In this document: piece after piece, positions 36,101-42,100 of the stretch | How positions within the stretch are numbered: the first letter of the stretch is position 1 | Layout: each line of letters begins with the position of its first letter | Assembly (NCBI GenBank): GCA_034780895.1 | Contig: JAUZTB010000073.1 | Coordinates: 10,223,658-10,287,657 of the forward strand | Length of the DNA: 64,000 bases | Direction of reading: 5' to 3' | DNA from: Rhynchobatus australiae | Lineage: Eukaryota | Position numbers: made by a program

Positions 36101-39100
36101 CTCAGTAAAACTACAAAATTGAAATGGTTTGGGGTCGGGAACAGATGTGGGTAGGGGTAATGGGAGAGTGAAACAAATTTTTAAAAATCAGGTTTGCTGA
36201 TTCCTATACAGATTTAATGATTTGATATCTGCTCATCAGCAACACTGGCAAAGTGGTAGGAACAGAAGGATTATACACTGAGGTAATTATGGATAACCAT
36301 TAGGAGAAAAAAAAATATACGAAGGTAGCCAAATGATAATCAAGATGCTTGAGAAAGATTCACAAAAAATCATCAGGCAATCGGAGACATGGAGATGATA
36401 ACTAAGTGGTTAAATTCATTGCTCAGGTCAGTGAGTTGTGGTGCCTGGATGTAAAATGGGATCTTTTTCTTGAAGGTGGGTATTGATCTAAAGTGTAGAA
36501 ACCAAAGATGGAGAACTCTGATGGGAAATAGGAGAGACTGATCAACCAACAAGCTAGAAGTTCAGCAAAGTGGTTGCCTGCTCTGCGTTTGATCTCCTCA
36601 TTGTAGAGGGCACATTTCCAGGATGATTGAATTAAACATAAGATCAAAGAAACTGAAGCAGGTGAAGGCAATCCGGTCCCTCCAGCCCATTCCATTTCCA
36701 AATTGATCAGGGTTGACCTTTTAACTCAGCATCACTTTACTGCACTACACCATATCCTTTGATTTCCTTAAGCACACAAATCTATCAATCTCTTTCAAAT
36801 TGCTCTTAACTACCCAATCAAATTCTATTAAAAATTTTACATACATAAATCAGATCGTGTCAATGAGTGCTTGCTCATTTATAAAACTTGTTCTCAACAT
36901 TTAACAATGCAATCTCTAATAACTTTCAGATAAGAACCCAAAATCACAGAAGTGTTTAAGAGGTTGGTCGAAGGAAGAAAGTCACTTACATAGAGAACAG
37001 TTTTAAGATAAAATGATGCTAGTTCAGAAGGAAGAGAACAAGGGCTTTGTGTATATTAGGCAAGCAGCAGAAAATAGTTAAGGTAGTGGAATGAAAAGAT
37101 GAAAGGTGGCAGCACAGGAAATTATGATTTCCTCTTTGTTTCTGGGCTCATGGTCAGGAAGCTCAAAGGAATGGCTCTTAAAGACACAGCTTTCTTTTGT
37201 TGTGTAATTTGTCAGAATGTTTGAAGGGAAAATAGTCAATTCAATGGAAGATCGAAAAATCCTGAAATGCCGAAAAATCCTGATACAGAGCCCATTATTT
37301 TTCTGTGTCATGCAATCAAATTTTATATAACCCTAGTAACCAAATGAGATTAAGTACCTAGTTTGTGGATGAGGTGGATTTACATCAACATTTTCTTCGA
37401 CCTGAAAGCATTTGGGATAATCTGTTTCTTTAACCATACAACATGGGATTGATAAAGAGCCTGGGCTTTGTAAGCAAGATCAAGCCTTAACAAAAGTGTT
37501 GAACCTGTTCCTGAATGGGATAAAAGTCCCTTTTCTACCTGAGCTGCTGCCAGAGAGTCTACCAATAAGAATTCATCATTTTTCTTTGAGATAAGTTCCA
37601 TTTTATCCATACCTGGAATGACTGCTTGCAAACATTTTCTTTGATCTATGTTTAGATCCCTCCCTGAATCTTTACTTCAGTCCTCGATCTAGCTGATCAT
37701 CTGCTTGACACTTTTTGATCTCCTCCCCACTCCCTTATCACCCATCTGACACCAACTCCTTGAATCTCCTTCCAGCCCCTCCTTGATGCTTGACTGTTTC
37801 CCCTTGATCATCTCCCAGCCACTTTGATCTTCTCCTTAGCCCTATCAGTCATCTTCAACCTCCCTTGATCCTGTCCTCCATTTATCTGCCCCATCCAATG
37901 ATCTTCCCACCACTACATTCTTAATTGCTGTGAAATCATGGGTTGGGCTTGCAAGTACACAGACTAACACGTTTCAAACAAACAAGACTGCATGTTCAAA
38001 GAGAGACAGGTTAAGCTCCAAGTCTCCTTGTTGCTCACTCCACCTTTTGCTTCTCTCACTCTCACTGTGTAAATGGTCAGAGCTGGAATCTAAGGTGTTT
38101 TGACAAGCTCAGATATAAGTTGTAAGTTACATAGCAATTGTTATCTCCAATGGAAGGGTAGACCACTGATGACATTGCAGCCTCAGGATCATTGCTAGTG
38201 GCCATAGCGCTATCCATGTTTCTATGTTATCCACTGTAGTCTATGCTCCTGACCCTCATGAAAAATGAGGACTTAGTGTACCCAGAGTTACGGATCAGCA
38301 GATATGATTTGACATGCAGTACTTTAGTTACTTCATGTGAGGAACAGTATTTTCCATGTGGCTCAAAAGCTGGGCATATTTGATGCCACAAACAATTTGT
38401 AAGACAGGTTTCAGTTTTGCTGTCGATGGTCTAAGGTCTTTAAGATGTGAGATAACTCAACTGTCCATTACAGCCAATGTACTTCATGGCTGCACCTCAG
38501 TCTTCTGTCATAGTCCTAAATGTTTGTATGAATTACCCTGTAAGAAGCTGTAGAACTCCCACCTAGCTTGCTACCTGAGGTTCTGCCCTTTGTACTCCAC
38601 AGTTCTGGTGAGTGTCATTCAGCTTCTGTTCTGTTGTCTGTTGATAGAACTGGCTGAACACTGTGCTCACAGATGTAAATTACCAAGGCATTAATTCTAT
38701 TATTTAACTGCTTTTGAGGTGATCATTTTATTTAAACAGTGGCAGCCTAGAGTAATGCTTTGATACCATGGGTTGGATTTTCATTCCAGAATAGATTCTG
38801 TACCATGCTGCGTCTTTTAACATTAGATCAACTTGCTAATGGCTGCCTGAGGGGGGAGAATTACCAAGCGCAAAAATAGCTTTGTGCAAAGGGATATGAC
38901 AAACTAACTGTTAACCCATTAAAGGATTTTAGTTTTATGTAAAAATATTTTGTTCATTTTGCTCAGAGTTTTACCCTTTTCCTGTCAGTCTGTGATGTAC
39001 AGCCAGAGAAAAAAAAACTTTAGCACATGTTGATATGTCAGTACTTTGACATCGGTGACTCCAGGGAGTTCTGGAAGTCTTCGCAAAATCGCTGTGTATC

Positions 39101-42100
39101 AACAGACAAACACAGATTGCTGCCTTGTACAAATAGACTGAGAATAAATTTGTATTTAAATTTCAATAAACAAGAGACAGAATTTCAGATAGCAAGCGAG
39201 GTGAGAGTTCTACAGCTTTACATAAGGTATTTTGTACAAACATTTAGGACAAGGAGAGAGGTGAATCCATGAAGTCCATCAGCTGTAATGGACAGTTACA
39301 TTATTTCATGTCTTAAAAATGTTAGACTATTTACAGCAAAACCGAAATCTGATAAATTGTCTGTGGCATCAAATATACGCAGCTTTTGATGTTTGATAGT
39401 GTTTACATTGAAGGAATCCAATATAAACCATACTTCAATCAAGCCTGTGAATGTTTTCCTTGTCTTATGGTGATTATATATTTCCATAAATGTGTTAGTG
39501 CATTCACATAATAGACTTCAGTGACAGAGTATTAATAAATATGATTTTATTCTCTGCAATCTGCCGATGCAGATTCACATACAAAATACTGACTATGAAT
39601 TTCTCAACACAGGAGTTTTATTTAAGAGATAAATTTAATGGTAGTTATTAACTGTATACATTGGATATTCTGGATGTCTTTTATCCATTCAGTTCGGTAA
39701 ATAGTCCTGTGAATGGGATCACAGGTCATGCAGGATGGGACAATCAGTATCCTCAGTAAATCCACGTTAATAACTTAATGCAATTGTCACCATCATGAAA
39801 GTCATGGTAAATTGTTGCAATTTATGGAACCATCTGCAATAATCTGTGAGAGAAAATTTGATGTAGACAGTAAATTTTTCTTGAAGTTGACCGTGCTTTT
39901 CTTATCCATTAATATATCCAACTTCAGACTGCCTTGAATCCTAGAGATTTTACTTGTGGCAGTCAAATGACATTGTACTAGACCAAAGCTATTTTTGCAC
40001 TTGGTAATTGCCCCCCCTCAGGCAGCCATTAGCAAGCAAGTTGATCTGATGTGAAAAGACATTATCCGAGTCAGAATCTATTCTGGAATGAAAATCCAAC
40101 CCATGGTATCAAAAACCTAGGCTATCACTGTTTAAATAAAATATCCACCTCAAAAGCAATTGAATAATAAAATTAATGCCTTAGTAATTTACATTAGTGA
40201 GCATAAGTTCAGAAAAGATCTAAGTGTTCTAGTGCATGAATCACAAAATGTTAGTTAAGAAGGCTAATGGCATGTTGACCTTTACTGCAAAGTGATTGGA
40301 GGTTAAGAATAAGGCTGTTTTGCTACAGTTGTACAGGGTATTCATGAGGCCACTTCTTGAATATTGTGGACAGTCTTGGTCCCCTTATCTATAAAAAGGA
40401 AATAGTGGCATTAGAAGCAGTCCAAAGAAGATTCACCAGGTTAATTCTGGGATGAGTGGGTTATCCTATCAAGAGAGGCTGGATAGTTTAGTTGTGTATT
40501 CCTTGGAGATTAGAAGAATAAGGAGTTAATTTATTTGAACATGTAAGATTCTAAGGAGGCTTCACAGGGTAGATGTTGAGATGTTTTCTCTTGTGAAAGA
40601 GCATCACAAACAAGGGGACTTCGATATAAAATAAGGGACCAGTCATTTAAAATTGTGGTGTGTGGAAAGTTCTTTTCTCAGAGGGTAGTGAATCTCAAGA
40701 ATTCTCCTCCCCACAGGGAGGTGGAGGTCAGATCATTTGATATGTTTAAGGTGGTGAAAGATAAACATCTGAAATGTCAAGGAATTGAGGGTCATGGGGA
40801 AATGACACGGAAGAGGTGCTGAGGCCAGCATAGATCAGCCACGATTGTATTGAATGGCAGGGCAGACTCGATGGGCCTGATGGCCTCCTCCTGCTCCTTT
40901 TGTCTTGTGTTCTTGCATAATGGGAGAGCAGTTATCAACATGAGGTTAGGCTGTGCGCATCTGCCGACAGGTGGAGCCATGGTGGAGCCAGCAGTTCCTG
41001 GCTCTTGTTGTCAGGCCCAGGCCTGAGTGGGTGGCAGTACCAGACATGGTTCCAGGCTCTCCGAGCCTCAGAGGTTTGGCGTAGCACACCTGGATATGGC
41101 ACAATGGACCCCATGCTCAGAAGCAGGAAGAAGCTCATGTGGCCTCCACTTCTCTGTTTTTTGGGTGGTGCAGGACCAGCAGACCAGTCGTGGTGATGTA
41201 GTGGCTGCCTCTTGCTCTGCGACCGATATTGGTCATGGAGGGTCATATCTCTGAATGACCTGCCTGTCACCCATCAGCTTTTTGCAAAAGCTTTGGCTTT
41301 TGGAAGATATGGTTGGTGTACTCCCTGCACAACCTGAGGGTTCATTCGGGCACCTGTTGACCCGGCATGTGTCCTCACTCAGGGCTGGTGAGAACAGCTG
41401 CTGACTGTTACCTTTGCCTACGGATGGAAACCGAATACATCTTGAGACATGATATAAAATGGGAAGTTTGGAAGCCTCTGGGTTGCCACAGTGTGCCACC
41501 TTTTTCATTCATCTCTCAGTTTGACTTGCATGAGATTCAATGTGAGTTCCAAGACACTTGTAATTCAAGAGAATCACCATCCTTATCAAGCAGAGATGAG
41601 TGAGAAATGCTGTGCTAAGTCTTTCTCAGCTGAGTTATTGAGTAGTCTGTCTCAGTGCCACAGATAATATGGTATCCAATTCAATCCATATCAGTTAGCA
41701 CCAATTTACTCCCACTTGTCTTCTTGGTGTGCAGTTCATTGGCCTGGCTTGCAGAACTACACATCACTTTGATGATGTTGACCAGGTAATGATCTTAGCA
41801 AGCAATGAAGCGGGCCAAACAGACCCCTGAGAAATTCTGCATTGGTGCTGCAGAAACCCATTCATCAGTTTTTTTTTGCATTAAACAGCTTCTGGTGCAC
41901 GATTAGGCAAGATATATTAAACTTACGATGTCAGNNNNNNNNNNNNNNNNNNNNNCAGCTAGAATCAGCAACGGTGCAGTTTTTCTGAACCATCTCTAAA
42001 TTGCAGAAATGACCATTATAGCAGTCATTTTTTTGGCCATTTATGTCCAATTCATTTTTAATTGTATTGCCTGCTGAATTTCCATCCATGATAACATCTA

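What the first reader, a model, noticed from the sequence alone, without database searches (positions are those of the whole stretch)
38654..40940. ~230-bp long inverted repeat around a 1.1-kb spacer, with a 42-nt perfect core
Seen: 38654-38884 and 39984-40212 are reverse complements with scattered substitutions and indels, yet 38759-38800 and 40072-40113 match exactly. The arms match no repeat family I recognise, and the spacer has no transposase-like ORF. A 5'-truncated CR1 cuts the outer end of the right arm. A short remnant after the CR1 (agcagttatcaaca, 40927-40940) resembles the expected continuation (agccagttctatcaaca), suggesting the IR predates the LINE. Inference: an undescribed long-TIR/foldback DNA element, or an inverted duplication of a regulatory element kept similar by gene conversion or selection. 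If transcribed, it would form a long intronic dsRNA stem (ADAR substrate or loop-out).
Basis: partly seen in the sequence, partly recalled or inferred. Interest (0 to 1): 0.7.

Follow-up and report, generated by a model that had tools for sequence, protein, structure and literature searches.

The report
Interleaved inverted duplications, likely rearrangement scar
The long inverted repeat is real, but it is interlocked with a second, older inverted repeat and looks like the decaying scar of a small local DNA rearrangement in non-coding shark or ray DNA, not a new jumping gene.

Summary
38654-38884 and 40212-39984 are reverse complements (84% over 236 columns, E 1.6e-65), and the 42-nt core is exact. 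A 5'-truncated LINE abuts the right arm.

It interleaves with the first, giving the order A, B, A', B'.

A single TIR or foldback element cannot have that order. I also found no target-site duplications, no subrepeats in the arms, no transposase-like ORF, no RNA family and no further copy in the 64-kb window.

The order a, b', M', a', b is what an inversion born with duplicated breakpoints gives (the staggered-break or dupINVdup pattern). Three template switches in one event, or two successive inverted duplications, fit about as well.

The 42-nt core is not beyond chance (P 0.07). Substitutions are transition-biased, as in neutral decay.

Genome-wide copy number could not be tested because no eukaryotic DNA collection was available. 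A dispersed repeat family therefore remains a live rival.

Verdict: an ordinary structural scar of modest interest.

The parts
38363..38593 (+). Arm A (left copy of the older inverted pair; 'a')
   Evidence: Matches 39389-39170 at 77.1% over 231 columns, E 1.7e-46. Local alignment: 182 of 233 identical, 36 mismatches, 15 gap columns. K2P 0.191.
38594..38638 (.). Junction stretch j between A and B, with no counterpart elsewhere
   Evidence: No match in the window at word size 9 or word size 7.
38639..38884 (+). Arm B (left copy of the reported repeat; 'b''). 38654-38884 is secure; 38639-38653 is a weakly supported extension.
   Evidence: 84.3% over 236 columns, E 1.6e-65. 204 of 239 identical. 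K2P 0.082. Extension: semi-anchored P 0.017.
38759..38800 (+). Exact 42-nt core, left copy
   Evidence: 100% complementary to 40072-40113 (pair I5). The run length is not beyond chance (shuffle P 0.069).
38885..39169 (.). Spacer s1 (285 bp), the candidate inverted middle segment M'
   Evidence: Lies between B and A'. No similarity to s2 in either orientation. No Pfam or Rfam match.
39170..39389 (-). Arm A' (inverted copy of A; 'a'')
   Evidence: as for arm A.
39390..39983 (.). Spacer s2 (594 bp), AT-rich and unique in the window
   Evidence: GC 0.33. No other copy in the window. No Pfam match reaching a cut-off.
39984..40212 (-). Arm B' (right copy of the reported repeat; 'b'), containing the core copy 40072-40113
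40213..40926 (+). 5'-truncated LINE fragment (RT-family ORF2 C-terminus plus 3' tail) inserted at the outer end of B'
   Evidence: tblastn of P0001-P0010 matches 40251-40795, E down to 7e-27. A collinear peptide starts at 40214. Tail homology to 34247-34453 and 17830-17990 runs to about 40918. 40919-40928 is unassigned.
40929..40940 (-). Possible remnant of the outer end of B' beyond the LINE
   Evidence: 12 of 14 positions match 38639-38652. P 0.38 unanchored and 0.017 semi-anchored.

Best explanation
This is the decaying scar of a local, non-transposon rearrangement in non-coding elasmobranch DNA.

Two neighbouring unique segments, A (231 bp) and B (about 246 bp), each have one inverted copy a short way downstream. 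The four copies are interleaved as A, B, s1, A', s2, B'.

I commit to a single complex event of the 'inversion with duplicated breakpoints' kind. This is known as the staggered-break model or dupINVdup, and it turns a-M-b into a-b'-M'-a'-b.
- The 285-bp middle segment s1 was inverted.
- The sequences at both breakpoints were copied in inverted orientation.
- In the replicative version (three template switches) the ancestral order was A, rc(s1), s2, B'. B is then a templated inverted insert at the left junction, together with 45-60 nt of filler (j).

Afterwards both pairs decayed neutrally, and a 5'-truncated LINE landed at the outer end of B'.

I infer no function. As side effects, the B arms could pair into an imperfect stem of about 200 bp if transcribed, and could promote further flips or fork stalling.

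Shown: the two inverted pairs, their order, their divergences, the LINE, and the absence of transposon hallmarks. Inferred: the mechanism, the ancestral order, the number of events and the neutrality.

The confidence given (0.4) is for the single complex event. Together with the two-event rival, a local rearrangement that is not a transposon gets about 0.6.
For: Architecture:
- Two highly significant inverted pairs, E 1.6e-65 and 1.7e-46, lie in the order A, B, A', B'.
- This is the a, b', a', b order expected from an inversion with staggered breaks. A nested or serial order would be expected from a TIR element or a simple inverted duplication.
- A and B lie only 45-60 bp apart, as expected for an a|b' junction.
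- Arm sizes of 231 and about 246 bp, at 77-85% identity, fall inside what Ranz et al. 2007 report for inversion-linked inverted duplications of non-repetitive sequence. Their figures are a median of 321 bp, a range of 46 bp to 1.9 kb, and identity of 88 +/- 5.4%, with both breakpoint sequences duplicated in 6 inversions (PMC1885836, passages read).

Not a dispersed repeat, as far as the window shows:
- A and B have no third copy in the 64-kb window.
- They are the only long local inverted pairs among 14 repeat pairs found at E<=1e-8.

No transposon hallmarks:
- No target-site duplication and no subrepeats in the arms.
- 0 of 57 local ORFs reach a Pfam cut-off.
- No Rfam family or tRNA.
- A is unrelated to B, and s1 is unrelated to s2.

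Neutral-looking decay:
- Transitions to transversions are 13:4 and 26:10.
- The core run has P 0.069.

Not an assembly duplicate: the arms differ by 8-17% in substitutions and lie in one gap-free stretch, 34231-41934.
Against: - The a'|b junction is not tight. 594 bp (s2) lie between A' and B'. The plain two-junction staggered-break model therefore needs a large filler or a later insertion. Only the three-switch version explains s2.
- The two pairs are not equally diverged. Substitutions are 16.5% for A and 7.7% for B, Fisher P 0.0052. One event predicts equal ages. This softens because A against the outer half of B gives P 0.17, and only the inner half of B stands out (P 0.0036). It still favours two events or later homogenisation of B.
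- No outgroup or second genome could be consulted, so the ancestral order and the orientation of s1 are unknown.
- Genome-wide copy number of A and B is untested.
- The exact 42-nt inverted core could let a short-read assembler flip the 1271 bp between the cores. In that case A and A' would be direct, not inverted.
Confidence: 0.4

Rival explanations
1. Two successive local events at one fragile spot. First A was copied in inverted orientation 576 bp downstream, or the segment between was inverted with a one-sided staggered break. Later B, which lies inside that first loop, was copied in inverted orientation 1.1 kb downstream, beyond A'. The first inverted repeat may have provoked the second by stalling forks.
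For: - The divergences are unequal: K2P 0.191 for A and 0.082 for B, Fisher P 0.0052.
- No constraint on the A'-B' distance is needed, so s2 is simply old local sequence.
- Each pair on its own fits the 3-2-1-4 order of the four-point template-switch model, the commonest order that yields a single inverted repeat (PMC7954356, passages read).
Against: - Two rare events of the same kind and nearly the same size would have to hit the same 2 kb.
- Their source segments would have to lie 45-60 bp apart, and the result would have to interleave. All of this is coincidence under this model.
- A against the outer half of B is not significantly different (P 0.17).
- The template-switch events described in that paper are short-range, tens to hundreds of nucleotides. 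These would be at the long end.
Confidence: 0.22
2. A and B are copies or fragments of one or two uncharacterised interspersed repeat families of elasmobranchs. They would be old non-autonomous elements that landed or hopped locally in opposite orientations.
For: - Both copies of each module end at the same positions, with unrelated flanks, as complete copies of a discrete element would.
- The modules are of similar, SINE- or MITE-like size.
- Elasmobranch genomes are very repeat-rich. CR1-group LINEs alone make up 22-34% (PMC13343379, passages read).
- No repeat library or eukaryotic genome was available, so this was never directly tested.
Against: - No third copy of either module occurs in about 60 kb of flanking sequence, while two families each have a pair within 2 kb.
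- No target-site duplications.
- No tRNA, 7SL or 5S-like head, nor any Rfam match.
- I saw no poly(A) or microsatellite tail at the module ends (sequence read).
- No TIRs within a module beyond chance (self-complement P 0.095 and 0.04).
- No homologues of arm ORFs in the protein collections. That test is weak.
Confidence: 0.2
3. One reading: one long-TIR or foldback DNA transposon spanning 38654-40940, with the 1.1-kb spacer as its body.
For: - Long arms (231-246 bp) surround a 1.1-kb spacer.
- The LINE insertion shows the structure is older than that LINE copy.
Against: - The left arm lies inside the loop of another inverted pair and the right arm lies outside it. No insertion of a whole element gives this.
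- No target-site duplication, with or without the remnant.
- No subrepeats in the arms.
- No transposase-like ORF.
- No other copy in the window.
Confidence: 0.03
4. The B arms, or their inner half including the 42-nt core, are kept alike by gene conversion or selection because they act as a structured RNA or as duplicated regulatory sequence.
For: - The inner half of B has 5.7% substitutions against 16.5% in A (P 0.0036).
- B/B' dominates the predicted fold, with 202-208 pairs and a stem-loop energy of -303 to -316 kcal/mol against about -98 for shuffled arms.
Against: - The core run is within chance (P 0.069).
- The inner and outer halves of B do not differ significantly (P 0.31).
- The inner half still carries an indel cluster.
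- No Rfam family. The best match is mir-1000 at 22 bits against a gathering score of 50.
- No evidence of a gene or of transcription in the window.
Confidence: 0.05
5. An assembly artefact: a mis-join or mis-orientation in a gap-rich short-read scaffold.
For: - The window has 26 N runs.
- Gap edges elsewhere carry duplicated sequence.
- The exact 42-nt inverted core could let an assembler flip the segment between the cores.
Against: - The arms differ by 8-17% in substitutions plus indels, so they are not one sequence used twice.
- The whole structure lies in one gap-free stretch, 34231-41934.
- A flip would change the orientation of A' but would not remove either repeat.
Confidence: 0.05

Closest known systems
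Inversions flanked by inverted duplications of breakpoint sequence (staggered-break model, Ranz et al. 2007, PMC1885836; the human-SV class name 'dupINVdup' is recalled, from no call)
   Same: The order a, b', M', a', b. The duplicated sequence is unique, non-repetitive and non-coding as far as the window shows. Duplicates are a few hundred bp at about 77-85% identity. Decay is by substitutions and small indels.
   Different: The inverted middle is only 285 bp, whereas the Drosophila cases are chromosomal inversions. One junction holds 594 bp and the other 45-60 bp of unrelated sequence. The two duplicate pairs differ in divergence. No outgroup shows the uninverted state.
Short-range template switching, four-point model (Walker et al. 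2021, PMC7954356)
   Same: A reverse-complement copy of nearby sequence creates an inverted repeat. Each pair fits the 3-2-1-4 order.
   Different: The copies are 231-246 nt long and lie 0.6-1.1 kb from their sources. The events described in that paper are in the tens to hundreds of nucleotides. Here there are also two interleaved copies.
Foldback and long-TIR DNA transposons (FB elements, MULE-type non-autonomous elements; their defining features are recalled, not taken from a call)
   Same: Arms of more than 200 bp around an internal segment of about 1 kb, with no coding capacity.
   Different: No target-site duplication and no subrepeated arms. The arms are interlocked with a second inverted pair. 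No further copies were seen.
Inverted-repeat pairs that form long dsRNA when transcribed (inverted Alu pairs as ADAR substrates and circRNA promoters; recalled)
   Same: Two arms of about 230 nt within 1.1 kb are predicted to pair over about 200 bp.
   Different: The arms are not copies of a dispersed SINE, as far as the window shows. Transcription, editing and an intronic location are all unshown.

Membership tests
Foldback / long-TIR DNA transposon | Long terminal inverted repeats at the very ends of the element | tested here: met
   Arms of 231 and 229 bp at 84-85% identity.
Foldback / long-TIR DNA transposon | Target-site duplication flanking the two outer ends | tested here: not met
   No correctly placed direct repeat of 5 nt or more within about 15-25 nt of the ends. 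This holds for the B pair with or without the remnant, for the A pair, for the A-j-B unit and for each module alone. The null is that 53% of random 31-nt window pairs share a 5-mer, so the absence is meaningful.
Foldback / long-TIR DNA transposon | Arms built of tandem subrepeats (FB-type; the feature is recalled) | tested here: not met
   TRF at minimum score 30 found 2 tiny arrays in 38000-41300. Neither is in an arm.
Foldback / long-TIR DNA transposon | One self-contained unit: arms enclose the body and nothing is interlocked with it | tested here: not met
   The left arm lies inside the A...A' loop and the right arm lies outside it.
Foldback / long-TIR DNA transposon | Multiple copies in the genome, or an autonomous partner | not testable with these tools
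   No eukaryotic DNA collection or repeat library was available. There are 0 further copies in the 64-kb window. 0 of 57 local ORFs reach a Pfam cut-off.
Inversion with duplicated breakpoints (staggered breaks / dupINVdup) | Order a, b', M', a', b, with a/a' and b/b' inverted | tested here: met
   A 38363-38593, B 38654-38884, s1, A' 39170-39389, B' 39984-40212.
Inversion with duplicated breakpoints (staggered breaks / dupINVdup) | Only two novel junctions: a abuts b' and a' abuts b | tested here: inconclusive
   The a|b' gap is 45-60 bp. The a'|b gap is 594 bp of unique sequence. This needs filler, a later insertion or a three-switch variant.
Inversion with duplicated breakpoints (staggered breaks / dupINVdup) | Both duplicate pairs are of the same age | tested here: inconclusive
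   Substitutions are 16.5% for A and 7.7% for B, P 0.0052. A against the outer half of B gives P 0.17, and A against the inner half gives P 0.0036.
Inversion with duplicated breakpoints (staggered breaks / dupINVdup) | The duplicated sequence is ancestrally unique, and an outgroup shows a-M-b | not testable with these tools
   The sequence is unique within the window. No related genome was available.
CR1-group LINE (the insert at 40213-40926) | Similarity to the C-terminal part of a LINE ORF2 (RT family), collinear, with the 5' part missing | tested here: met
   tblastn matches 40251-40795 to residues 180-350 of P0009 (356 aa, PF00078) and to 9 other proteins, E down to 7e-27. A collinear peptide starts at 40214.
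CR1-group LINE (the insert at 40213-40926) | Placement in the CR1 clade rather than L2, Zenon or another clade | not tested
No phylogeny was made. I can only say it is an RT-family LINE of a type found in elasmobranch proteomes.

The most novel reading that the evidence does not exclude
The inner half of the B arms, including the exact 42-nt core, is being held alike by gene conversion or purifying selection. On this reading the pair works as a long hairpin RNA, for example a source of small RNAs or an edited dsRNA switch. The rearrangement that made it would then have created a functional element, not a scar.
Probability: 0.05. Interest if true: 0.6.

Novelty: new member of a known kind. Interest (0 to 1): 0.25.

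Why it matters
If the main reading is right, the locus is a small, old example of a known mutational process: rearrangements that duplicate their own breakpoints in inverted orientation. Here it appears at sub-kilobase scale in a cartilaginous fish.

Its practical value is as a caution. A long diverged inverted repeat with no transposase is not in itself evidence for a new foldback element. The order of all nearby repeats has to be read first.

The locus would matter more if such interleaved scars proved common. They would then be a general, little-catalogued source of long hairpin-forming sequence in vertebrate non-coding DNA.

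Tried and rejected
RNA and protein family searches
- Rfam at gathering thresholds over the whole window gave 0 matches. At E<=1 over 37800-41300 it gave 1 match, mir-1000 at 22.1 bits against a gathering score of 50, which I rejected as noise.
- ARAGORN found 0 tRNAs.
- Pfam: 0 of 233 N-free ORFs of 60 aa or more in the window reach a curated cut-off, with 3 sub-threshold matches. 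0 of 57 ORFs of 30 aa or more in 38300-41300 reach one; 7 ORFs had sub-threshold matches at E 0.012-0.093.

Using protein collections as a proxy for copy number
- The finding's own LINE ORF against longer proteins gave no hit.
- The 42-aa ORF in arm B found no candidate.
- The 70-aa ORF in arm A, searched exhaustively, gave 6 hits. All are 511-1311-aa proteins matched in 4-13 stretches at 30-38% identity. I took these for compositional matches of a Cys-rich frame, not homologues.
- None of these searches says anything about copy number.

Sequence tests
- Target-site duplications were sought for nine end configurations and none was found.
- A against B, A against rc(B), and s1 against s2 in both orientations showed no similarity beyond shuffles.
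- The 'remnant' beyond the LINE is not significant unanchored (P 0.38) and only suggestive when anchored (P 0.017).

Models rejected
- A simple inverted duplication of the contiguous A-j-B block predicts the order A B B' A', which is not what is seen.
- No single inversion of the present order gives a simpler ancestor. I worked this through by hand.

Literature
- Four searches found no paper describing an elasmobranch long-TIR or foldback family. They searched words, not sequence, so they cannot show that these arms are unpublished.

Collections not used
- The prokaryote genome collection and the phage, plasmid and E. coli collections cannot hold this DNA.

Full report
**Source and limits**

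The window is vertebrate DNA from a cartilaginous fish. It is not human.
- A well-kept LINE tail ORF at 13120-13365 (-) matched 10 proteins at E<=0.001 among 35 candidates.
- The named ones come from Hypanus sabinus, Mustelus asterias and Stegostoma tigrinum. Two of the 10 carry PF00078.

The window holds 26 runs of N, 3468 bases in all. I left them alone. The finding lies in one gap-free stretch, 34231-41934.

No collection of eukaryotic DNA and no repeat library was available. The prokaryote, phage, plasmid and E. coli collections cannot hold this sequence, so I did not use them. The genome-wide copy number of the arms therefore stayed unchecked. That is the main gap in this report.

No supplementary files were read.

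**The observation**

- The repeat finder on 38000-41500 returned 7 inverted pairs and no direct family.
- Four of the pairs tile the reported arms. One of them is the exact 42-nt core, 38759-38800 against 40072-40113.
- blastn gives 38654-38884 against 40212-39984 at 84.3% over 236 columns, E 1.6e-65.
- Local alignment gives 204 identical of 239 columns, with 17 mismatches and 18 gap columns.
- The spacer is 1099 bp.

The insert at the outer end of the right arm is a 5'-truncated LINE.
- Elasmobranch RT-family proteins match 40251-40795 (+) over their C-terminal 110 + 70 residues, with E down to 7e-27.
- The peptide KDLSVLVHESQNVS, starting at 40214, is collinear with them.
- The 3' tail is shared with two other copies in the window up to about 40918.
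- Whether it belongs to the CR1 clade proper was not tested.
- CR1-group elements make up 22-34% of elasmobranch genomes (PMC13343379, passages read). Such an insertion is therefore commonplace.

The short 'remnant' beyond the LINE (40929-40940 against 38639-38652) is suggestive only. P is 0.38 when any 91-nt window may match, and 0.017 when the match must lie in the 35 nt after the LINE tail.

The other three inverted pairs belong to a second long inverted repeat.
- A = 38363-38593 against 39389-39170, 77.1% over 231 columns, E 1.7e-46.
- Local alignment gives 182 identical of 233 columns.

The four arms are interleaved. The order is: A; 45-60 bp (j); B; 285 bp (s1); A'; 594 bp (s2); B'; then the LINE.
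- A more sensitive self-comparison of 36000-43000 found nothing else significant. The next best hit had E 0.021.
- In a self-comparison of the whole window, only 14 repeat pairs reach E<=1e-8. The A and B pairs are the only long local inverted ones.
- Neither A nor B has a third copy in the window.

**Tests of the transposon reading**
- No direct repeat of 5 nt or more sits at the outer ends of any of nine configurations tried.
- The arms contain no tandem subrepeats. TRF found 2 tiny arrays in 38000-41300, neither in an arm.
- A is unrelated to B, and s1 to s2, in either orientation.
- 0 of 57 ORFs of 30 aa or more in 38300-41300 reach a Pfam cut-off.
- 0 of 233 N-free ORFs of 60 aa or more in the whole window reach one.
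- Rfam gives nothing at gathering scores. At E<=1 it gives only a 22-bit mir-1000 match against a gathering score of 50.
- There is no tRNA.

Above all, the left B arm lies inside the A...A' loop and the right B arm lies outside it. Insertion of a whole TIR element, or of one element into another, gives nested or serial repeats. It never gives interleaved ones.

**Divergence**
- B has 13 transitions, 4 transversions and 11 gap events. K2P is 0.082.
- A has 26 transitions, 10 transversions and 6 gap events. K2P is 0.191.
- The difference in substitutions is significant (Fisher P 0.0052).

Split into blocks, the substitution fractions are:

| Block | Substitution fraction |
|---|---|
| A, first half (38363-38477) | 0.18 |
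| A, second half (38478-38593) | 0.15 |
| B, outer half (38654-38758) | 0.10 |
| B, inner half (38759-38884) | 0.057 |

- A against outer B gives P 0.17.
- A against inner B gives P 0.0036.
- Outer against inner B gives P 0.31.

The exact 42-nt run is not beyond chance for this number of differences (shuffle P 0.069). The pattern therefore looks like neutral decay. There may have been some homogenisation of the inner half of B, or B may simply be younger.

**What it most likely is**

The order a, b', M', a', b is what an inversion produces when its two breaks are staggered and filled in, or when a replicative event copies both breakpoints.

Ranz et al. 2007 found inverted duplications of non-repetitive sequence at the breakpoints of 17 of 29 Drosophila inversions. 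The median size was 321 bp, the range 46 bp to 1.9 kb, and the identity 88 +/- 5.4%. Both breakpoint sequences were duplicated in six inversions (PMC1885836, passages read). The sizes and identities here fit that range.

There are two misfits:
- 594 bp lie at the a'|b junction.
- The two pairs differ in divergence.

A three-switch replicative version removes the first misfit.
- The ancestral order would be A, rc(s1), s2, B'.
- s1 was inverted and A was copied with it.
- An inverted copy of B', plus 45-60 nt of filler, was placed at the left junction.

Two successive one-sided events remove the second misfit.
- The older event involved A and the younger involved B.
- Each fits the 3-2-1-4 order of the four-point template-switch model (PMC7954356, passages read).
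- The adjacency of A and B, and the interleaving, would then be coincidence or the result of a fragile site.

I put about 0.4 on a single complex event and 0.22 on two events. Together that is roughly 0.6 on a local rearrangement that is not a transposon.

A dispersed repeat family gets 0.2. The reason is that its direct test could not be run, and both copies of each module end at the same positions.

**Consequences**

In the minimum-energy fold of 38340-40240, B/B' forms 202 pairs on the plus strand and 208 on the minus strand. A/A' forms none.
- The two stems exclude each other in a nested fold. Over such lengths I infer they could not coexist.
- Stem-loop energies are about -303 to -316 kcal/mol for B and -260 to -264 for A. 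Shuffled arms give about -100.
- A long imperfect dsRNA is therefore possible if the region is transcribed.
- No gene, exon or transcript evidence exists in the window, so 'intronic' is unproven.

**Caveats**
- The exact 42-nt inverted core could allow a short-read assembler to place the 1271 bp between the cores in either orientation. A flip would turn A/A' into a direct repeat. B/B' would stay inverted.
- The right-arm homology stops at 40940, where a GC-rich, CpG-poor block begins (GC 0.54, CpG observed/expected 0.27). If that block is a later insertion, the arm may once have run further. No continuation exists elsewhere in the window.

**Verdict**

The foldback-transposon reading is not supported. 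The inverted-duplication reading is supported, but without evidence of selection. This is a new example of a known kind of structural scar. Interest is low to moderate.

Noticed in passing
window 40941-41500: A GC-rich block (GC 0.54 against about 0.36 around it) with CpG observed/expected of 0.27 starts exactly where the right-arm homology ends. It has stop-free frames of 91, 112 and 75 aa on both strands with no Pfam match, and no other copy in the window. It may be an old insertion.
   Followed up: partly
window 21309-21347 / 21448-21486 and 60952-61033 / 61136-61217: Direct repeats at 100% and 95% identity straddle 100-N runs (21348-21447 and 61034-61133). They look like duplicated gap edges from scaffolding, not biology.
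   Followed up: no
window 27640-27771 and 60985-61032: Two self-complementary stretches: 140 columns at 74% and 48 nt at 92%.
   Followed up: no
window 28737-29004: A tandem array: two overlapping copies offset by about 93 bp, 84% identity.
   Followed up: no
window 19113-19220 / 20577-20687: A 111-column direct repeat at 91% identity, 1.36 kb apart. The right copy overlaps the start of a LINE RT-domain fragment at 20386-21208.
   Followed up: no
window 15-268 (+), 13022-13365 (-), 17964-18218 (-), 18298-18672 (+), 20386-21208 (+), 34247-34453 (+): Further fragments of the same LINE group. The first five were found by tblastn with the elasmobranch proteins. The tail at 34247-34453 was found by DNA similarity.
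   Followed up: partly
protein P0008: A 452-aa protein labelled as a Klebsiella pneumoniae reverse transcriptase is 58% identical to the elasmobranch LINE tail. It is probably a contaminant sequence in that record.
   Followed up: no
window 38875-38892: The inner end of arm B runs into a small near-palindrome (CTTTG TG CAAAG), so the first bases of s1 repeat the arm's last bases in inverted form. This could be junction microhomology or chance.
   Followed up: no
window 44421-46048 and 57026-58129 (+): Long stop-free frames of up to 201 aa in pyrimidine-rich, Pro/Ser/Leu-rich sequence with no Pfam match. They look like low-complexity DNA, not genes.
   Followed up: no
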